Part shown: positions 2,846 to 12,500 of the stretch, piece by piece | Numbering within the stretch: position 1 is the first letter of the stretch | How the letters are laid out: each line of letters starts with the position of its first letter | Origin: the human T2T-CHM13v2.0 reference genome, Homo sapiens | Assembly: GCF_009914755.1 (NCBI RefSeq) | Contig: NC_060943.1 | DNA: 64,000 bases | Strand: one strand, 5' to 3' | Position numbers and translations under genes: made by a program | The notes under the pieces: model-generated | Told to the model about the DNA's origin: nothing | The model's database searches: none | What the model saw: only the letters and a program-made list of their open reading frames with translations

Positions 2846-5520
2846 ACCTAACTCCTCTCTCGACACCAATTTTTAAATATTTATAAATATCGAAGAACAG
2901 GCAGACCCTTCACAGGGGAAAACTTATGTTTAATTAATTTTCAGGGACACCTTTTATTCTCACCTGGGTTTCTGGTTCTCAAATCTAAAGTTTCCTTTCA
3001 AATGAACTTAAGAAAAGCGAGGTGACTTAAAAGGGAGCTAGAACAGGGCACATGAAGAAGGGGCCAAGGTGGAGAATGCGGCTGGGGTACCCCATCAGCC
3101 ATCAGCGTTGGGGACTCCTGGCGAAGGGTGGCGTCCCCGAAGCCAACTAGGCCCCGCCTGGAAGGAAGCTGCACCCACTGTTCCAGGAAGAAGCCGAGGT
3201 TTGGGAAGGGATCCCACAGCTCCGGGGCTCCATCCTGCTGATGAGCCCCAAACTCCCCTCTTCCTGGGTCCTCGGAGAGGAGAAGCAGGAAGCGGGGAAA
3301 TGAGCTACTGCAGCTCCTGGGCCCTGCCGGGATCCCTCCGCCCCTCGCACCCATCGACTCGCTGAACCTGACGATGGAAGAGAGCAGGTGCCCATCTTGC
3401 GGGAGCTTCGGGAGGGCCACACCTGGGGCCAGCGCCACAGCCTGCAGGGGCCTGGGGGAGTGGAGGCAATGAGGAGGGTGCCACCAACTCAGGCCTTGGA
3501 GCTCTGCATCCTCCACCACCCCCGGGCTCAGGCGGGCGTTAACTGCATGGACTGAACGGGGAGGGGGTCACCCCTCTGTGTCCAGGAGCTGGGGGGTCCC
3601 AGGCTGGAGCAGCCACATCACGTCCCTCAAGGGCAAAAAATGCAACATACTGGGCCTCACTGGGCCCTCCAAAGCCTCCGCCCTAACGTGTGAGGGGACA
3701 AGGCGAGACCCTCCCAACCTGCAGCATTGGGGCAGGGCCGGAGCACAGGGCGAGACTCTGTGGGAACCACAGAAAATACATCTGCAAACATTGGCAGGTT
3801 CCTGCTGGGACCGGGCTGGGCGTCCAGGGAGAGGCAACCCAGAGGGAGCATTCTCAGGTCCACACGGCCTACACACCACAGCTCTGGTTACCCAGGGACC
3901 AATCTCACAGTGGTCCGTGCCAGGGCTGAGGGGGTGAGAGGCGACAGGGGACGAGGGAAGACACCTCCCACCCCACCCTCCCCACCAGGCCCTGCTGTAA
4001 GCCCACCCAGAGGCCCAGGAGAATGGGGGTGGACGGCCTTGGGAGTTGCGCTTCCTCCTCCAGGAAGCCCCCAGGGCCTGACCCTCTGCCTCACACAGGG
4101 AAGCATTAGCATGTCCGGTTCCTGGGGCTGTTTCCGGGGGGCTGGCAGGGTGGCGTTTGGGGATTTCCACGCCTCAGGGAGCATATTCCGGCCAGCCCTG
4201 TGGCCACTTCCTCACGTAGAGGGGAAGGCCAGTGTGAGGCAGTGGGGGCAGCAAAGCGATGTCTCTCCATGTGGGGGTGCAAGTGCCCAAGTACAGAACC
4301 CCCTTTGCCCACCACTCAAAACCCCGACACTCCAGCCAGGGCCCACCCCTGGGGGATTCTGGAGATAACTGCAGGACGGCGCTTTCCACCCAGATCCCGG
4401 AGGCAGGAAGGACACAGCTTCAGAGGCCCCAACCCGAGGCCCCCACTCCCCGGAAAGATGCTGATGTCCACAAAGAGACCCGTGGCTCTGAAGCAGCATC
4501 GGGGGCACCCGCCCCAACCTCCCCCACCAAATCCTGTCGACAGCCAGCCTGGGCCGCCCAAATGCACATCAGACTAGACCCTCTCTCCATTCACAACCAT
4601 CCAGGGCTCCCCGCTGCCCCTGCAACGAACACAGCGCCCCTAGCCCGCCCCGCCGGCCGGTCCCACCGCAGGGCGTCCGTACGGGCTGCTCTCTCTGCCT
4701 GGCAAATTCCTCCCCTCATGCTCCCACGGCCCCTTCCTCTCACCCTCAGGGCTCTGCCCCGACACGCCCTCTGCGGAGACCTTCACTAGAGGTCCCGCTT
4801 TGGGGCAACCTGGCCCTCGCTGGGTGTGCCGTGAAGCCCTGCCCATGCTCCAGAGTGTGATTTTCAGGCCACCCCCAGGACCCCACGTCTCCCCTATCTG
4901 TCCCGCCCACTGCTGTGTCATCAGCGAGGGTGACCCGCTCATCCAGGTCAGCCTGGGATGTTTCTGCTTTGAGCACTCAAAGCCGCGGGTCCCAGGAATT
5001 GCCCCTCAGTCCTGGGCAAACCACAATGGCCGGTCACCCTGGTGCTGGGCCCTGCATACAGCAAGCGCCTAATACCTGCTTAAATGAAAGTCGTCGAGGC
5101 TCACAAGGTGGGTGGGATCCAGTGAGAGCCGGGATCCCGCACCACGCCCTCTCCAGAGCCTCAGTTTCCCCCTTATGGATTGACTGGAGAAACGGATGCT
5201 CGAGATCCCCACCCACACACAGGCCCAGCTCCAACCCTGCGCCTAAAAACAAGCCCCACCCAGCCCCCAGACCCAGGCTCCAGGCGCGGGAGGGACGAGG
5301 GGACGAGGGGCTCAGGGGCTCGGGCTCCCAAGGCAGGTCACACGGGCAACGGCAGCTGATTTCAGGGGTCTTCAGGCTCGCTGCCCCCGACCCGGCCTGT
5401 GTGGCCCTTTCCCCATTGTCTCCCTCCTTTGCTGCCCCAGCCTCCCTCGCCCGCACACTGTCTTCAACAGACCCTTGATCTCCTCACTCCACGAGCGCTG
5501 GCAGGAAGGCGGGGTCCTAC

Positions 5521-5593
5521 CTGAACCTCCGAACTGCGCCCCGGCCAGGGAGGCGGGCCGGCCCTTCCCGTTGGTGACAGGCAGCGGGAACAT
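5521..5593 (-). CDS. TCF3: TCF3 exon 3 (73 nt): MFPLPVTNGKGRPASLAGAQFGGS-G
   Basis: Pyrimidine tract and CTGCAG acceptor directly before ATG at 5593; donor GTAGGA at 5520-5515; peptide visible inside ORF 5372..5635(-) and continues exon 2 in frame. Exon 4 is left of the window. Confidence 0.97.
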
Positions 5594-8584
5594 CTGCAGG
5601 GAGGGGAGGGGAGACGTGAGCGGGGCGGGTGGCAAACCAAACCCTACAGTCCCGGGTTCAAACCCAAGCTGGGAGCAGAGCTGGGGACACCCGGGAACCT
5701 GAGACTGCGCTCCATCTAGGCCCGGCCCGTCCTGCTCCGCCCCATCACAGACCAGAAGACTCTGAGGACTCGCGTGCCCTCAAGTGACGCTGCACCCTGG
5801 ACACCCACGCCCAGAGTGAGAAAACTCCAGACGATGACCCCGCTGTACCGCCAGGCAGAGTCCCTGCCGCTGAAAACTCGCTGTTCCCCCTGCCTTTGCT
5901 CTGGGGGGAGGGGTATCCCATTAGGCGAAGGATACAACTTATCAGCTCTTGACAGTGATACAAAGTTGTCTTTACGTTTCAGCTCTGAAAAGTGAGAGGT
6001 TTACACTCAACAGGTGGACATGTGGAGAGTCCCCGGATGCCTGAGCCCTGGCTGACTCCTCGTTTCCTGTGTGTGCACTGGCCCCGCATGGCAGGCCCTG
6101 GAGCAGGGGGTCCCTGGAGCGGGGGGTAGGGCCCAGTGTCCCCCTACCAGGGCTGGGTATGGGTTTGCTTGGCAAAAGGGGAAGCCGAGGCTCAGACAGG
6201 CAGCAGGTCGAGGAAGACACGGGATGGAGCCCCGGGCCCGGCAGGAAGCTGGAGGGGCTGGGGAGAGGCTGCACCCCACAGCTGATCCAGCTCCTGGGTG
6301 CTAGGGGTGTGGGACTGCCACCCTCCCTCCCGCCCGGCTCACCCGTACCCAGAACACTAAGTCCCTAAAGATTAACGGGCTCAGCGGCATTAACCGGAAA
6401 AGCCAACGGCAACAAACCCTTTTGCCACAGAAAAAAACACAACAAGCCTCCGCCCTGCCCCAAGGGGCTGCGTTTTAAGGCTCCCATCGGGGCTTAAGTG
6501 ATCAAAGTGGCTGGAATCAGAGCCAGGGGCTTTCTGAGGAGCAGCCAAGATCCCCAACACCTTCCCCAGCCAGCCAGGAGGCGAAGGCACAGCGCCTGTG
6601 GCCACGATCCACAGGTCCAAAGGGGACCCAGGAAGCGGGGTTGTCCCCCACTCCCTGGTCCTGCAGAAGGGGAAACGGAGGCCGCATTCTCACCTGGCCC
6701 TGGAGAGGAAGAACGGTCTTGCGGGTAGGGGTGGCACCCGCGCTGAAGGCAGTGTTCGCCCTGGACCACACCCCCTCCCGCAGGCTCCGGTGCACCCAGC
6801 CTCCCCTGGACCCAGACCTCCAAGGGCCAACCTCTCATTTGGGAAACAAAGGCCTGCTGTGGGGGACAGCCAACTGCATTTCTATCTGCTTTGTCCCCTA
6901 GGACACCAGGGCTGCACCAACGTGCCACAGGTCACATGGGTACCGGGCTGTGTCCTGTGGGCTCTGCAGGCCTCATGAGCAGCCCAGAACAGCCCCCGCA
7001 CCCCTTGGAGCATCAGTTTCCTCTTCTGAGAAATGGACCGAGGGCTCTGGCTGTGTGGGACGTGGTGAAACCCAAAAGCCCATGGGAGTCTCGCACGCGG
7101 CAGGGCCTGGGGAGCTCGCTTCCAACAGCCTCGGTCCTAGGGACTCGCTCCCCCTTCATTCCTGAAGCCCCTGACTCAGGCCCAGGGACTGCCTGGGACC
7201 CAGGCAGGGCATGTCAGCCCAGGCCAGTGCTGGCGGGTCCTTCGTTCCCGACCAAAGCTAGCCTGGGTCAGGGCAGGACAAAGGCGCGCTGGGAACAGCC
7301 TGGGTTAGCGTTCTCCCTCGTATTTATTTGGAGTTCCCTGTTCTCTCACTTTATACGCATCTGGTCCAGGGAAGTAAGTGCTTCCCCTAGGACCCAGCCT
7401 CGGCAGGGGCAGAAGGCAGGCATGCAGGAACAGAGTGGGGATGCGGGCAGTCACAGGGGCTGCCTCTGCCTCCCCGTCCTGGCCAGGGAGGTGGAACTCC
7501 ACCTCTGGGTAAAGCCCGAGGGGGGACGCCCGGAGAGGACGGGCACCTCGCCGCTCCCAGCCTGTTTCCTCATCTGGGAACGGCTCCGACCCGGGATGGG
7601 GAGACGTGCTGAGTGGCTTGAGGTGAGGAGTCAGGTCCTGGGGCTGAACCTGTGCCCCCTCCCCCCAAACGCTGGTCTGTTCCAGCCCAGCGGTCTGTGA
7701 CTTGTCAGTTTAACAAAAAACAACCCAACTGCACCTCGGGTTACTCAGCCAGGGAAGCAAAAATAAAACGGGGCTTAAAAATACCAGCATGGCCCTTCCG
7801 GAGCCTTGGCCCCTCCGGCCCTTGGGCTGTTTTTTTCCGCAGGGTGGCCGGTGTTGTTTCAGTTTGGGGACTTTTGTTTTTGACAGACCTCAGTGGCCTG
7901 TGCCTCATAGGCGGGAGGGTTAAATTCAGACTGAAAGTGCCCTCCCCCAACCTGTTTCAACCCCAAACGCTGCCACTGGGCATGGGGGGGGGGGGGGAGC
8001 AGAATTTAAGGACATCTGTAGACAGGCCAGAAGAAACAAACCAAGGTCCCTGGGCTTCTCCAGGAACCCATAACACATGGCCCCACTGTACCAGCAGGCA
8101 AACCGAGGCCCCGGGCCTTTACAGCACCCGTCAGCGGCCGGTACCCCAGGGGGCTCCGGCATTCCAGCCTCACTGCACCTGCCTGAACTGTGTGACTTCT
8201 GAGGACCAGCACCCTCTGAGCCTCCGTTCACCCAGGTGGAGAATGGGCCGTACAGGGACAGATCCAACCACCTAAGACTCTGAAGAAGCCGCCCCGCCCT
8301 CCCCACCGGGCCTGCCTGCTCCGCAGTGATAACCGTGGCAGTCACAATGGTGGCGCTGCTGTCTGCTCGGTGGCCCATGAATTCCCACTCAATCCCAATC
8401 CAGCCTCCTCCTGGCCCAAGCTCGGCTTCTGGCAGCTTAACTTCAGCACCCACGTGTGACTAATTAACCACACAGTCAGTTTCATGCCCGCATCCTCTGC
8501 CCACCAGGGGAGTCCCGTATGGGGCAGGTTGTGTCTGCCCTGTTCACGGAGGGTGGTCCGCTCAGCACTGGGCACCCCCTCCTT

Positions 8585-8890
8585 TACTTCTTTGAGGAAG
8601 GATCTTACTCTATCGCCCAGGAAGGAGTGCAGTGGCGCAATCACAGCTCACTGCAGCCTCAACCTCCAGGGCTCAAGTGATTCTCCTTGCCTCAGCCTCC
8701 CAAGTAGCTGGGACCACAGGCATCTACCACCACTCCTAGCTAATTTTTTGAGTTTTGTTTTGTCTTTTTGAGAAATGGGGCCTCACTATGTTTCCTGGGC
8801 TGGACTTGGAACTCCTGGCCTCAAGCGATCCTCCCGCCTCAGCCTCCCAAAGTGCTGGAATGACAGGTGGGAACCACTGTGCCCAGCCCC
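8585..8890 (-). mobile_element. AluJ-like element in TCF3 intron 2, followed by MIR-like fragments (~8990-9125)
   Basis: Reverse Alu dimer; cccattttacagat and ctcagtttccccatctgtaaa are MIR core motifs. Confidence 0.85.
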
Positions 8891-9342
8891 CCTCCCATTT
8901 ACTGAAACAGGGTCTCCAGGGTCTCACTGTCAACCAGACTGGAGTGCAGTGATCTTTTACTTACTTTTAATTTTTGTATCTACAATGAGGTAAGCGACCC
9001 TGATCAGGCCCATTTTACAGATCAGAAGATCAAGGCCGCATTTTGCTTACCCAGCCAAGCTGGGGGCCCAGGACCATGCCCCTGAGGACTCAGTTTCCCC
9101 ATCTGTAAAGCAGTAGGCTGTAGAATGCTGCGTCCGGGCAAAAGCCCCATAGCACACGTGCTGCCGTGCGCTGTCAGCCTCCTGCCAGAGAGCGGCCCAC
9201 TCCCCCAGCCCCACCGGGGCCTCCCATCCAAACAGCTGAGGCTCCATCGCTGAAGTATTCAGCAAACACTCTCCCCTGAAAACCTTCCCGTGAACTGTGG
9301 AGGCAAAGGGGTGTCGGGGGCTGGGCGGGGGTCCTGGCTCAC

Positions 9343-9414
9343 CATGCTGAAGTCCAGGAGGTCACTGAGCTCCTTGTCTGTGCCCACAGGCGCCATCCTC
9401 TGCGGCTGGTTCAT
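9343..9414 (-). CDS. TCF3: TCF3 (E2A) first coding segment, exon 2: [24 protein letters not shown], containing the AD1 PCET/LDFS motif
   Basis: Reverse complement of 9414-9343 gives 24 codons matching the recalled E2A N-terminus; followed by donor GTGAGC (plus-strand gctcac 9337-9342), phase 0. Confidence 0.98.
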
Positions 9415-9453
9415 TCTCCTGGGGCCAGGGCGGGCACCTCAGGCCTGGAAACC
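9415..9453 (-). other. TCF3: TCF3 exon 2, 5'UTR part (39 nt)
   Basis: Minus strand ...ccaccaagcag|GGTTTCCAGGCCTGAGGTGCCCGCCCTGGCCCCAGGAGA-ATG matches the recalled TCF3 mRNA leader; pyrimidine-rich tract upstream. Confidence 0.93.
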
Positions 9454-10699
9454 CTGCTTGGTGGATGTGGGGACAGATGGACAGGGAGAAACAGGGAGGG
9501 GAGAAGAGTTGTGAGTGGTCAAAGCACAGAGTGCTAAAAGCCACCTAAAAAACCCTCAACCGCCCTGGGGTCTGAGTTCCAGCAGAGCCCTGGGGGCACG
9601 GGGAGCCCTGGGAGCAGGCGCAGGGAAGCTGGAATTCCAGAGTCTAGGTCCCTGCAGAGTCCTCCCCAGAGACCACAGGGAGTCTGAAAAATGGGGGGAG
9701 GGTGTGCAAATATAAACTCCCTAACTCCCCCAGGGAACACCAGGGCATCAAGTTGCCAAGTTTAAACTGCACGCAGGGCAGCCAGAACCTCTCCTTTCTC
9801 CAACTCTCTCATTTCCAACCAACCCCGGGCTTCCTCTGAGGCCCCCTACCCCCGGGAAAGGGAGGAACAGCCCGATCCTACCCCGCCCCGAGGGAAATTT
9901 GGTGATTCCCCCCTCCCCCAGCAGATGGCACAGCCCGTTGAAGACCAGGTCGCCCCCAAATTCAACATGAAGGAAATCCACAAGTCAGAAAACCACGAAA
10001 CTCTTTTACAAGCTTCAAGACTTAAAGTGCCGGGGGTGGGGGGGACGCGCATCCTATGCAGGGACCAGCAAAGCTTTCCTCCACCCTCAATCTCCCTCCC
10101 CCCAAGAAAACCCCAACAGTATTCAGGAAAGAAAAAAAAAACAGCCCTAGATTGCTTTACTGTCGCGATGTATCCGGGAATTATTTTTAAGCAAAACTTT
10201 GACAACATCCCTTGCCTGCCCTCCATGAGCGGGGAGAGCGTCTCAAGACCAGGGTGCTCCCGCGTGGTCCCAGGGGGCTCCATTCTAAGATGGGGGATGG
10301 GGGATCCACCTGCCAAGACCCATTCCACCCCCAGAAAAAGGTACAGAGAAAAATTTCCATTCCAAAGAAATGCACTCCAGGCCCCTCCAGTCTCGACTTT
10401 CCCCAGGGGTCCCCAGGTGGGGACGGGGGCAGCCCGGGAGACACCTCCGAGGCTGGGGGTGGGGAGGAGCCTCCGAGGTCGAGGGAGACCCAACTTCAGA
10501 AGCAGAGAAATCCCCTCTTTGTCTGCCAACTGGAGGCCGGGTGTGAAGCGGGCGCCCCAGCGCAGCCCCTCCCCCGCTCAGTTTTTTTCTTTTTTGGAGG
10601 GCGTGTGAAACTGACTTTTTTTGAGGACTACGAAACCGCACTTTTTTGTGGGGTAGCTGAAACCGATTTTAAGACAGACTTAGTTGGGGGGGTGGCGAG

Positions 10700-12500
10700 C
10701 TAAAACGGGCATTCTACGGGAGCTGGAAGACTTCTGGGGCGTCCCAAGGACTTTGAGAGACTTGGAGAATGTTTGAAGCCACTTTGCACGGCGCCGAAGG
10801 CGGGGGGCGCGCTGGAACGCCTTTTTCCCGGGGGGAGGCGGCCCGGGAAGCCGGACCCCCCTCCCCCCGCAGCCGGTGCAGGCGGTGCGGCCCGGGAGCC
10901 TTTGAAGCTCGCAGCGCGGCCGCCGCCTCGCCCCGCATTAACGCGGAGCAGATGTTACCCGCGCGCCCCCCCCCGGCCCGCCCGGCCCCGACCAGCGCCT
11001 GCAGCGCGCGGCACCTTCCCCGCGCAGACAAAAGGACGTCCCTCCCGCGCGCTCCCCACCCCAAACTCCGGCGCCCGGGCCGGGCCCCCCTCTACCCGAG
11101 AAAGGGGGCGCCCCGGGGTCCCCGTGCGCCCGGGCTGGGGGGGACGGTCCTCGCGCCTAAGTTGCACAGCCCGTCCGGCGCCCCCCGCGCCCCCGCCCGG
11201 GGCTGCTTAAAGTTTCCCGAAGTGCCCGGCCCGACGGGGGCGACGCGGGCCTGGCGAGCTCCGGGCTCCTCCACGTCGCCGCCCCCCCGGCGCCGCGCGA
11301 AGTTGGAGAACAATGACTCCCGGGCCGCGGGGCGCCCCCCGACACCGCCCCCGCCCCAACTTCCTCCGCGCCCCCCCCCAACAAGCGCGCGCGGGGCGGG
11401 CCGGGGTTCCCTGGGCACAAAGCACGGGGGTACCGGGCGCGCCCCCCGCCCCCCGCCGGGCTCACCTGCTGGGCGCGGCCGGGCACGCGGCGCGTGGGGG
11501 GGGGCGGCGGCATGAAGCGGGGGGGCCCCCCCCCGGACAAAGGTGCGTCGCGGCCGGGCCCCCGAGGGTCGCGCGTGGGCGGCGGCGGCGGCGCGCGTGG
11601 CCCGGGCCCCTCCCACCCCCGCGTGGCCCGTCCCGCGGGGCCCGTGCGCGCGGCCGGCCGGGGCGCCCCTGGGGCAGCGGCGTGCGCGGTGCCCGCGGTG
11701 CCCGCCGCCGCGTCGGCTCCGGCCCGCTACGCCCGCAGCCGCCGCCGCTGCCTCATCTTCCTGCGGCGGGAGACATGTTCCGCCCCCCGCCCGCGCCGCC
11801 CCGCCCCGCCCCGTGCAGGCCCCGCCCCTGCCCCGCCCCCGAGTGCCCCGCCCGGCGGCCCACGCGGATCCCTCCGCCACCTCCGGGCGGCTCGGGCCCG
11901 AACGCCCTAGCTCGGCCTCTCGAGCACCCTCGTGAGGACCCCGAATCCCGTGAGGTCCAGAGCCTGGGAGCGGGGACGCGCAGAGGAGGCGGTCGGGCCA
12001 CGGCGCGGGGAGAAATCACGGACTATCCCCGTCCGCGGAAGCACACACGAGCTGTGCGCTTAGTCCATGACGCAAGCGAGTAAGGCCCGTGAGATTGAAA
12101 GCTAAGGCAGAGCAGTCTGGTCAATCGGAAGCCGCGAAAGTCTGATGGGCGGGGATCCTAGCCATTCGTGGTGAGGCCCCGCCTCCTTTCTTCTCGGCCC
12201 CGCCCCTCAGCAGAGGCGGGACTCTGCGAGCGAGAGGCCGCGAGAGGCGGCCGGGGTGGGTCCTGGAGTTTTGTTCTCAGGTTGGCGTGGCCGCCCGCGC
12301 GGAGCCTTCTGCTTGGTTATATTTGCGTTCCTCGGGCCGGCCCCGCGTGCTGAGTGGTGCGAGCGGGTATCACGGCCCCGAGGGGGCTACGTCAGACCCA
12401 TTTTCCCGGCGGGAAAACCGACTCTGGCTCCGGCTCTGGGTCAGAGAGCCCCGCGGGGAGTCTCAGCGGTGCCTTTGCCGACTTGAGTCTCCGTCTCGGC
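10700..12500. promoter_or_regulatory. TCF3: CpG island / TCF3 promoter
   Basis: Very high GC and CpG density; tandem CCCCGCCCC SP/KLF boxes at ~11781-11850; CGGAAG ETS cores at ~12036 and ~12126. Confidence 0.92.
11466..11780 (-). other. TCF3: TCF3 non-coding exon 1 (5' boundary/TSS approximate)
   Basis: Near-consensus donor CAG|GTGAGC at 11466/11465 in the CpG island core, with GC boxes just upstream (11781-11850). The exact TSS cannot be read from sequence. Confidence 0.8.

What the first reader, a model, noticed from the sequence alone, without database searches (positions are those of the whole stretch)
5521..11513. In-frame uORF plus a symmetric exon 2 could yield an E2A isoform lacking the AD1 PCET motif
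Seen: a minus-strand ATG at 11513 gives 16 codons (MPPPPPTRRVPGRAQQ) ending exactly at the exon 1 donor (phase 0). Spliced to exon 2 it reads GFQA then TGA (9441-9439), a 20-aa uORF in frame with the main ATG and ending 24 nt before it. Exon 2 is 111 nt and holds the uORF stop, the main ATG and the whole [13 protein letters not shown] motif; exon 3 starts with a phase-0 ATG. Known: this motif (PCET) binds p300/CBP and ETO-family corepressors. Inference: skipping exon 2 turns the uORF into a proline-rich N-terminus fused to MFPLPV..., or allows a start at Met25, giving a DNA-binding E2A without the PCET docking site.
Basis: partly seen in the sequence, partly recalled or inferred. Interest (0 to 1): 0.8.

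Follow-up and report, generated by a model that had tools for sequence, protein, structure and literature searches.

The report
TCF3 uORF; exon-2-skipped isoform unsupported

Summary
The minus-strand ATG at 11513 opens 16 codons to the exon 1 donor. Four codons and a TGA follow in exon 2, 24 nt before the main ATG. Exon 2 is 111 nt, and exon 3 begins with Met25.

The coincidence is not unusual. 35% of 5,000 shuffles of exon 1 give an ATG open to the donor in phase 0.

The proposed isoform has no support in what I could reach:
- 0 of 50 RefSeq/Gnomon TCF3 models skip exon 2, although 7 of 50 skip exons 4+5.
- The old retrocopy TCF3P1 carries exons 1-2-3 contiguously.
- 0 of 11 short E2A-like database proteins start at the uORF fusion or at Met25.
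- Eight literature searches found nothing on a TCF3 uORF or exon 2 skipping.

The frame logic does hold: a skipped mRNA would encode 646 or 630 residues. The paralogue TCF4 really does skip its homologous LDFS exon (PMC3137626).

Both candidate start codons sit in weak context. Most likely this is a constitutive exon 2 behind a weak, mostly bypassed uORF in an 85% GC leader. Junction reads, the decisive data, were not available.

The parts
11466..11781 (-). TCF3 exon 1, non-coding, 316 nt, 85% G+C, inside a CpG island
   Evidence: RefSeq table: it is the first exon of 34 of 50 models. G+C content. CpG observed/expected is about 0.9-1.05 from 10600 to 12400.
11753..11776 (-). uORF 1: ATG at 11776, 7 codons plus stop, out of frame with the main ORF
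   Evidence: It lies only 5 nt from the annotated 5' end.
11727..11756 (-). uORF 2: ATG at 11756 (A at -3, A at +4), 9 codons plus TAG, in the main frame
   Evidence: After its TAG the frame stays open down to the TGA in exon 2.
11601..11620 (-). G-quadruplex-type motif (four G runs) in the leader RNA
   Evidence: Regex scan. A motif match only.
11519..11534 (-). G9/C7 palindrome 6-21 nt upstream of the uATG
   Evidence: Read directly.
11466..11513 (-). uORF 3, exon 1 part: ATG at 11513 in weak context and 16 codons ending at the donor in phase 0. It contains a C9 run at 11504-11496.
9454..9459 (-). Tandem (NAGNAG-type) acceptor of exon 2: the exon starts at 9456 or 9453
   Evidence: 9 of 50 models use 9456, 25 use 9453, and 16 read through from an upstream start. 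Sequence.
9439..9453 (-). uORF 3, exon 2 part: four codons and TGA (9441-9439)
9343..9453 (-). Exon 2, 111 nt: 39 nt of leader plus 72 nt coding residues 1-24
9412..9414 (-). Main start codon (A at -3, A at +4)
   Evidence: RefSeq coding start in 50 of 50 models. Context.
9343..9384 (-). Codons 11-24: the LXXLL/LDFS core of the PCET motif
   Evidence: Translation. 24 of 24 match to PDB 2mh0_A. The 11-24 peptide binds KIX (PMC4066744).
5521..5593 (-). Exon 3, 73 nt: begins with Met25 (5593-5591) and holds the C-terminal part of PCET (Met25, Phe26, Pro27, Leu28)
   Evidence: PMC3874172 section 14. PMC8283981 passages.
10848..10853 (-). Alternative transcript starts inside intron 1. These transcripts read through to exon 2 and lack exon 1 and its uATGs.
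   Evidence: 16 of 50 models. The leader is 1,439 nt with 10 uATGs.

Best explanation
This is the ordinary 5' end of TCF3.

Structure:
- A CpG-island promoter drives a non-coding, 85% G+C exon 1.
- Exon 2 is constitutive. It carries the real start codon and the LXXLL/LDFS core of activation domain 1.
- Exon 3 continues the same motif.

Mechanism:
- The ATG at 11513 opens a 20-codon uORF (21 codons with the alternative acceptor). It sits in a poor initiation context behind a very stable leader.
- Most scanning ribosomes probably pass it by leaky scanning and start at 9414.
- The minority that translate it terminate 24 nt before the main AUG. That spacer is too short for efficient re-initiation, so the uORF at most dampens E2A synthesis slightly.

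Why the features line up:
- Met25 at the first codon of exon 3 is conserved because it belongs to the docking motif, and because the intron position is ancient in the family. It need not be a start codon.
- The frame match between the uORF, the 111-nt exon and exon 3 is a coincidence of about 1 in 8.

Shown versus inferred:
- Shown: the anatomy, the frames, the annotation and the retrocopy.
- Inferred: leaky scanning, poor re-initiation and constitutive splicing. The scanning rules I apply are recalled, not taken from a call.
For: Annotation:
- 50 of 50 RefSeq/Gnomon models contain exons 2 and 3 and start translation at 9414.
- The same set does carry rare N-terminal variants: 7 of 50 skip exons 4+5, 9 of 50 use the tandem acceptor, and 16 of 50 use an intronic start. 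It is therefore not blind to such events.

Retrocopy TCF3P1 on chr9:
- It is a processed copy with a poly(A) tail, 86.5% identical to the E12-type mRNA over positions 303-2854.
- Exon 1, exon 2 and exon 3 sequence lie contiguous in it.
- A gelada protein record shares its private substitutions: 45 of 48 identical to the retrocopy frame against 41 of 48 to the parent. The mRNA therefore already had this exon structure before the human / Old World monkey split.

Other evidence:
- The donor directly after the codon that follows LDFS is at the same place in TCF3, TCF12 and TCF4.
- 9 of 11 short E2A-like proteins, from mammals, birds, a turtle, a lizard and a frog, keep the exon 2 and exon 3 peptides contiguous.
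- Start contexts: weak for 11513, and A at -3 for 9414.
- The leader is 355 nt with a predicted energy of -211.9 kcal/mol.
- Chance level: 35.3% of 5,000 shuffles.
Against: - No transcript-level data (junction reads, long reads, CAGE) and no ribosome profiling could be consulted, so constitutive splicing rests on annotation and one retrocopy.
- In a rough matrix built from TCF3's own 20 donors and 25 acceptors, the exon 1 donor (95th percentile) and the exon 3 acceptor (96th) are the strongest in the gene. Exon 2's acceptor (48th, 12 of 18 pyrimidines) and donor (55th) are only average. That layout would tolerate some skipping.
- The homologous TCF4 exon is a genuine cassette exon (PMC3137626).
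- The uATG and the 16 nt around it are identical in the roughly 13%-diverged retrocopy. This hints that the uATG is old, although the retrocopy's uORF body is 29 nt shorter.
- Mouse Tcf3 is named among mRNAs whose translation resists eIF2-alpha phosphorylation, a class enriched for translated uORFs (PMC10962698 passages). The uORFs may therefore matter more than 'slight dampening'.
Confidence: 0.75

Rival explanations
1. Exon 2 is skipped in some cells. The uORF then becomes a proline-rich N-terminus fused to exon 3 (646 residues), or translation starts at Met25 (630 residues). Either way the product is a DNA-binding E2A that keeps AD2 and the bHLH domain but lacks the LXXLL/LDFS core. It would be the TCF3 counterpart of the TCF4 isoforms that lack the LDFS exon.
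For: - The frames work: the open frames of 646 and 630 codons run to the normal stop, so no premature stop arises.
- Exon 2 is 111 nt, or 114 nt with the other acceptor, so it is symmetric either way.
- The flanking exon 1 donor and exon 3 acceptor are the strongest in the gene by a rough within-gene matrix.
- TCF4 skips the homologous exon, at levels comparable to inclusion for two of its 5' exons, and the resulting isoforms are weaker activators (PMC3137626 passages).
- AD1-less forms of HEB and E2-2 are established (PMC4066744 and PMC3346973 passages).
Against: - 0 of 50 models skip exon 2, while 7 of 50 skip exons 4+5.
- The retrocopy retains exon 2.
- 0 of 11 short E2A-like proteins start with the fusion or Met25. 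A further 13 candidates were left out unseen by the tool, and full-length proteins were outside the search's length range.
- Searches for TCF3 with exon 2 skipping, with 'lacking AD1', and with alternative translation found nothing on TCF3.
- Both start codons have weak context.
- 16 of 50 models start inside intron 1, so exon 2 is their first exon and cannot be skipped.
Confidence: 0.08
2. The leader is a regulated translational switch rather than a passive one. In one version, the short uORF at 11756 (good context) permits re-initiation, and the uORF at 11513, which ends 24 nt before the main AUG, then acts as the inhibitory second uORF. It would be bypassed when ternary complex is scarce, by delayed re-initiation or by stress-induced bypass of a weak-context uORF. 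In a second version, the five prolines directly after the uAUG make the uORF ribosome depend on eIF5A, so a stalled ribosome blocks scanning when eIF5A activity is low.
For: - Two uORFs lie in series, with 213 nt between the stop of the first (11727) and the uATG at 11513, and only 24 nt between the second stop and the main AUG.
- Mouse Tcf3 is listed among eIF2-alpha-phosphorylation-resistant mRNAs. 43% of that class have a translated uORF against 27% overall, and the class has more structured leaders (PMC10962698 passages).
- The uATG was already present in the mRNA copied into TCF3P1.
- The five-proline run is read directly. The eIF5A dependence of proline runs is recalled knowledge, not tested here.
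Against: - The paper does not say that Tcf3 itself has a translated uORF, and whether the mouse leader has the same uORFs could not be checked.
- The first two uATGs lie 5 and 25 nt from the annotated 5' end. They are absent from the part of exon 1 preserved in the retrocopy, whose homology starts near 11632, so many transcripts may lack them.
- The retrocopy's uORF body differs by 29 nt, so the peptide and its length are not demonstrably conserved.
- Searches for TCF3 with 'uORF' or 'upstream open reading' gave 12 and 14 papers. None concerns a TCF3 uORF, judging by the listings and by the two I opened.
Confidence: 0.15
3. The uATG is largely irrelevant because most TCF3 transcripts start downstream of it. 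That could be through dispersed starts within the CpG island, or through the intron 1 start near 10850.
For: - 16 of 50 models start at 10848-10853.
- The CpG island extends to about 10600.
- CpG-island promoters typically have dispersed starts (recalled).
Against: - 34 of 50 models, including all four curated NM records, start at 11781.
- A cluster of GC boxes lies immediately upstream of 11781.
- The retrocopy's homology begins about 119 nt upstream of the uATG, so its source mRNA contained the uATG.
- The 1,439-nt alternative leader has 10 uATGs, so it looks poorly translatable.
Confidence: 0.1

Closest known systems
TCF4 transcripts lacking internal exon 3 (delta-3), giving TCF4-C-type isoforms (Sepp et al. 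2011, PMC3137626; passages read)
   Same: - The homologous exon carries the main ATG and the LDFS motif. I located it on chr18.
- It has the same donor position, after the codon that follows LDFS.
- Skipping it leaves a protein with the rest of AD1, AD2 and the bHLH domain, and that protein is a weaker activator.
   Different: - In TCF4 the skipping is documented by RT-PCR and RNase protection. For TCF3 there is none in 50 models.
- The TCF4 exon, as I read its acceptor, is 92 nt, and the TCF12 one is 97 nt, so neither is a multiple of three. The paper says the frame shifts on skipping. Only TCF3 would allow an upstream ORF to fuse in frame.
HEBAlt and E2-2Alt (AD1-less E proteins made from an internal promoter and an Alt exon)
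   Same: They are natural E-protein forms that lack AD1/PCET but keep AD2 and the bHLH domain (PMC4066744 and PMC3346973 passages).
   Different: - They arise from a separate transcription start and a dedicated, conserved 23-residue Alt exon, not from exon skipping.
- The reviews read here credit E2A only with E12 and E47.
A single weak-context inhibitory uORF that is bypassed under stress (CHOP type), or the two-uORF delayed re-initiation of ATF4
   Same: Short uORFs lie in series, and the last has a suboptimal start close to the main AUG. Mouse Tcf3 falls in the same translational class as Atf4 in one data set (PMC10962698 passages).
   Different: - The last uORF does not overlap the main ORF.
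- No footprint, reporter or conservation evidence exists for TCF3.
- The mechanisms of the comparison genes are recalled or cited second-hand from that paper.

Membership tests
Upstream open reading frame (uORF) | An AUG inside the annotated 5' leader, upstream of the main AUG | tested here: met
   ATG at 11513 lies within exon 1 of 34 of 50 models.
Upstream open reading frame (uORF) | An in-frame stop before the main coding sequence in the spliced mRNA | tested here: met
   TGA at 9441-9439 after exon 1-exon 2 splicing, 24 nt before ATG 9414.
Upstream open reading frame (uORF) | Evidence that ribosomes initiate on it | not testable with these tools
   No ribosome profiling is on hand. Supplementary ORF catalogues are closed. 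Literature searches found nothing specific.
Upstream open reading frame (uORF) | Conservation of the start codon and the frame | tested here: inconclusive
   The retrocopy TCF3P1 keeps the ATG and 16 identical nt around it, but its uORF body is 29 nt shorter. No other mammalian genome is available.
Cassette (skipped) exon | At least one transcript or junction that joins the flanking exons | tested here: not met
   0 of 50 RefSeq/Gnomon models. The retrocopy contains the exon. 0 of 11 short proteins lack only exon 2. Junction reads were not available.
Cassette (skipped) exon | A length divisible by three, so that skipping keeps the frame | tested here: met
   111 nt, or 114 nt with the other acceptor.
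Cassette (skipped) exon | Splice sites weaker than those of the flanking exons | tested here: inconclusive
   A within-gene matrix of 20 donors and 25 acceptors places the exon 2 sites at the 48th-55th percentile and the flanking sites at the 95th-96th. The training set is small and circular.
AD1/PCET-less E-protein isoform | The open frame keeps AD2 and the bHLH domain but lacks LXXLL/LDFS | tested here: met
   This holds on paper only. The joined exon 1-exon 3 mRNA gives 646- or 630-codon frames to the normal stop.
AD1/PCET-less E-protein isoform | The mRNA or protein has been observed | tested here: not met
   Paper searches. Full-length database proteins and GENCODE were out of reach.
PCET motif of E-protein AD1 | Overlapping LXXLL and LDFS sequences near the N-terminus | tested here: met
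   Translation. Identical to PDB 2mh0_A over residues 1-37, using the chimpanzee record P0001, which equals the human translation over residues 1-95.
PCET motif of E-protein AD1 | The whole motif is encoded by exon 2 | tested here: not met
   Residues 11-24 are in exon 2. Met25, Phe26 and the Pro27/Leu28 flank, which modulates ETO and TAZ2 binding, are in exon 3.

The most novel reading that the evidence does not exclude
In some cell type or leukaemia, TCF3 exon 2 is skipped often enough to matter. The mRNA is then translated from the weak uATG at 11513, or from near-cognate codons in the roughly 90-codon open stretch above it, or from Met25. The product is an E2A that binds DNA and dimerises but cannot dock CBP/p300 KIX, TAZ2 or ETO through the PCET core. 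This would be a natural attenuated form, or one blind to corepressors. It would be unique among E proteins in borrowing a uORF as its N-terminus, because only TCF3 has a symmetric LDFS exon.
Probability: 0.07. Interest if true: 0.55.

Novelty: new member of a known kind. Interest (0 to 1): 0.2.

Why it matters
The PCET core of E2A is where CBP/p300 and ETO-family corepressors compete. Its strength of binding matters for E2A-PBX1 and AML1-ETO leukaemia (PMC3874172, PMC4066744). HEB and E2-2 have natural forms without AD1, and E2A is thought to have none. A real PCET-less E2A would therefore fill a gap, and it would change how E2A dosage and E2A fusion proteins are read.

As it stands, the sequence only permits such an isoform. 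The evidence within reach points to an ordinary constitutive exon and an ordinary weak uORF. The idea is cheap to settle with public junction counts.

Tried and rejected
1. Reaching full-length E2A proteins of other species, to look for N-termini without exon 2. This was not possible. The word search accepts only candidates of 0.55-1.75 times the query length, spliced proteins may not be typed in, and no stop-free reference longer than 110-196 codons exists in the gene or in TCF3P1. I ran one search with the 110-codon stop-free N-terminal frame of TCF3P1. It sees only proteins of about 60-192 residues, and 13 further candidates were withheld by the tool.

2. Splice-site strength. No standard scorer is installed. 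The within-gene matrix is small and circular, so I use it only as a hint.

3. Conservation of the uATG. No mammalian genomes are on hand. The only time point is the TCF3P1 retrocopy. I cannot tell whether its 29-nt difference is a loss in the retrocopy or a gain in the gene.

4. Locating the TCF12 and TCF4 exons that follow the LDFS exon, using the exon 3 peptide. This found only TCF3 and TCF3P1. That Met25 is shared with HEB rests on the statement in PMC3874172 that only three PCET residues differ.

5. Rfam scan of 5000-12500 on both strands: 0 matches at gathering score.

6. Literature.
- 'TCF3' with 'uORF': 12 papers.
- 'TCF3' with 'upstream open reading': 14 papers.
- 'TCF3' with 'exon 2', 'exon skipping' and 'AD1': 0 papers.
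- 'TCF3' with 'skipping of exon 2': 7 papers, which by their listings concern other genes. The one I opened mentions TCF3 only for its E12/E47 exons.
- 'E2A' with 'lacking AD1' and 'isoform': 1 paper, the TCF4 paper.
- 'E2A' with 'AD1', 'alternative translation' and 'truncated': 1 paper, on adenovirus.
- None describes a TCF3 uORF or exon 2 skipping.
The supplements of PMC3137626 (isoform sequences, EST counts) and of PMC10962698 (per-gene uORF calls), and the published Ribo-seq ORF catalogues, could bear on this and were not seen.
- GENCODE/Ensembl transcripts and UniProt isoform records were not available.

7. Considered and rejected: that Met25 at the exon 3 start signals an alternative start. 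It is a contact residue of the motif. The intron position is shared by all three paralogues.

Full report
**What is in the sequence.**

Reading the minus strand and translating the spliced exons in a script confirms every coordinate of the finding.
- Exon 1 (11781-11466) is non-coding and 85% G+C.
- The ATG at 11513-11511 opens 16 codons that end on the last base of exon 1. The donor GT is at 11465-11464.
- Exon 2 (9453-9343, 111 nt) adds four codons and a TGA (9441-9439).
- After a 24-nt spacer comes the main ATG at 9414.
- Exon 2 encodes residues 1-24. Exon 3 (5593-5521) starts with ATG, which is Met25.
- The exon 2 peptide is identical to residues 1-24 of the E2-alpha fragment in PDB 2mh0. 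That construct covers residues 1-37, so it crosses the exon 2/3 boundary.

- Exon 1 has two more uATGs, at 11776 (7 codons) and 11756 (9 codons, good context, same frame as the main ORF).
- Exon 2 has a tandem acceptor, 9456 or 9453. 9 of 50 models use 9456. It adds one codon and keeps the frame.
- 16 of 50 models start at 10848-10853 inside intron 1 and read through into exon 2, so they lack exon 1 altogether. Their 1,439-nt leader has 10 uATGs.
- The start contexts are poor for the uATG (T at -3, C at +4), adequate for the main ATG (A at -3), and poor for Met25 once exon 1 is joined to exon 3 (C at -3, T at +4).
- The 355-nt leader folds to a predicted -211.9 kcal/mol.

**Is it more than chance?**

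No. In 5,000 dinucleotide-preserving shuffles of exon 1, 78.8% contain an ATG that stays open to the exon end. 35.3% contain one that ends in phase 0. Stops are rare in 85% G+C sequence.

The symmetric exon and the match to the main ATG's frame are one and the same condition. Exon 2's coding part is 72 nt, so the condition is that its 39-nt untranslated part be a multiple of three. That has a prior of about 1 in 3 (my inference). The joint chance is roughly 1 in 8.

**Is exon 2 skipped?**

The RefSeq table for this assembly has 50 TCF3 mRNAs, 4 curated and 46 Gnomon. 50 of 50 contain exons 2 and 3 and start at 9414. The set is not insensitive to rare N-terminal events, since 7 of 50 models skip exons 4+5 (74+79 nt, in frame).

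An independent record is TCF3P1 on chr9.
- It is a processed retrocopy with a poly(A) tail.
- It is 86.5% identical to the E12-type mRNA over positions 303-2854.
- Exon 1 sequence (from about 11632), exon 2 (88% identity over 111 nt) and exon 3 (93% over 73 nt) are contiguous in it.
- A gelada protein record carries the retrocopy's private substitutions: 45 of 48 identical, against 41 of 48 to the parent. The retrocopy therefore predates the split from Old World monkeys.
- It keeps the uATG with 16 identical surrounding bases. However, its uORF body is 29 nt shorter, so the frame relation is not preserved there. I cannot tell which state is ancestral.

One protein word search used the retrocopy's 110-codon stop-free N-terminal frame.
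- It returned 11 proteins of 72-147 residues.
- 9 keep the exon 2 and exon 3 peptides contiguous, one has an insertion between them, and one is an ab initio model that lacks both.
- 0 of 11 start with a uORF fusion or with Met25.
- The tool withheld 13 further candidates. Full-length proteins were outside the length range, so this is a weak negative.

**The motif.**

[quoted passage not shown] A peptide of residues 11-24, all from exon 2, binds KIX with Kd 5.2 uM (same paper, Table 1 passage).

The motif continues into exon 3.
- A review lists Met25 and Phe26 among its residues, and Pro27/Leu28 as TAZ2 contacts (PMC8283981 passages).
- Met24, Pro27 and Leu28 are the E2A-specific changes that weaken ETO binding (PMC3874172 section 14).

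But Met25 is explained as a motif residue. The donor after the codon that follows LDFS sits at the same place in TCF3, TCF12 and TCF4, so the exon boundary is old.

**Precedent.**

The closest known case is in the paralogue. In TCF4 the 'exon 3 encoded LDFS motif' lies in a cassette exon.
- Its skipping is minor for most 5' exons, but comparable to inclusion for two of them.
- Isoforms that retain only the part of AD1 coded by exons 4-6 activate far less than TCF4-B (PMC3137626 passages).
- As I read their acceptors, the TCF4 and TCF12 exons are 92 and 97 nt. This fits the paper's remark that the frame shifts on skipping.
- Only TCF3 could fuse an upstream ORF in frame.

HEBAlt and E2-2Alt lack AD1 by another route, an internal promoter with an Alt exon. 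The reviews I read give E2A only E12 and E47.

**Paper check of the hypothetical mRNA.**

Joining exon 1 to exon 3 gives open frames of 646 codons (from 11513) and 630 codons (from Met25), both to the normal stop. The next in-frame ATG with a purine at -3 is 118 codons further down. So the isoform would not be a nonsense-mediated-decay target, but both of its candidate starts are weak.

- A rough matrix built from TCF3's own 20 donors and 25 acceptors ranks the exon 1 donor and the exon 3 acceptor top of the gene, and exon 2's sites as average.
- The uATG is at least as old as the retrocopy.
- Mouse Tcf3 is named among mRNAs whose translation resists eIF2-alpha phosphorylation, a class enriched for translated uORFs and structured leaders (PMC10962698 passages). 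That paper does not say that Tcf3 itself has a translated uORF.

**Verdict.**

The frame logic is correct. The existence of the isoform is unsupported by everything within reach, and the coincidence it rests on is common.

The best reading (0.75) is a constitutive exon 2 behind a weak, mostly bypassed uORF in a highly structured leader. The rivals are:
- a regulated uORF switch (0.15, not exclusive of the best reading);
- transcript starts mostly downstream of the uATG (0.10);

If the isoform were real, it would be a new member of a known kind, the E-protein isoforms that lack the LDFS exon. Interest is 0.2. Public junction counts would settle it quickly.

**Literature searches for prior description.**

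Searches found no paper on a TCF3 uORF or on TCF3 exon 2 skipping. Supplements, GENCODE and the Ribo-seq ORF catalogues were not visible.

Noticed in passing
window 5521-5593 joined to chr19:1598184-1598251 (outside the window): 7 of 50 RefSeq/Gnomon TCF3 models skip exons 4 and 5 (74+79 = 153 nt, in frame). This removes about 51 residues of the C-terminal half of AD1 while keeping the PCET core. It is an annotated AD1 variant of a different kind from the one proposed.
   Followed up: partly
window 9453-9459: Tandem NAGNAG-type acceptor of exon 2. 9 of 50 models start the exon at 9456, which adds one in-frame codon to the leader and the uORF.
   Followed up: yes
window 10848-10853 down to 9415: 16 of 50 models start inside intron 1, at the downstream edge of the CpG island. 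They give a 1,439-nt leader with 10 uATGs. Six of these uATGs open frames of 40-145 codons, so it looks poorly translatable.
   Followed up: partly
window 11601-11620, 11519-11534, 11496-11504: The leader RNA has a four-G-run quadruplex-type motif, a G9/C7 palindrome just upstream of the uATG, and a C9 run inside the uORF. A length change in the C9 run would shift the uORF frame.
   Followed up: no
G000 chr9:5115924-5118480 (L004, L009): TCF3P1 is a processed retrocopy of an E12-type TCF3 mRNA that used a proximal poly(A) site. It sits directly beside IGHEP2 and a string of mitochondrial-gene pseudogenes within the JAK2/INSL6 region.
   Followed up: partly
protein P0003 (Theropithecus gelada, UniRef 'uncharacterized protein', 86 aa): It looks like a translation of the gelada orthologue of TCF3P1 rather than of TCF3. 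It shares the retrocopy's private substitutions.
   Followed up: partly
window 11726-9439, main frame: After the TAG of the uORF at 11756, the main frame stays open for about 90 codons through the rest of exon 1 to the TGA in exon 2. Near-cognate starts there would lengthen the uORF, or the hypothetical fusion.
   Followed up: no
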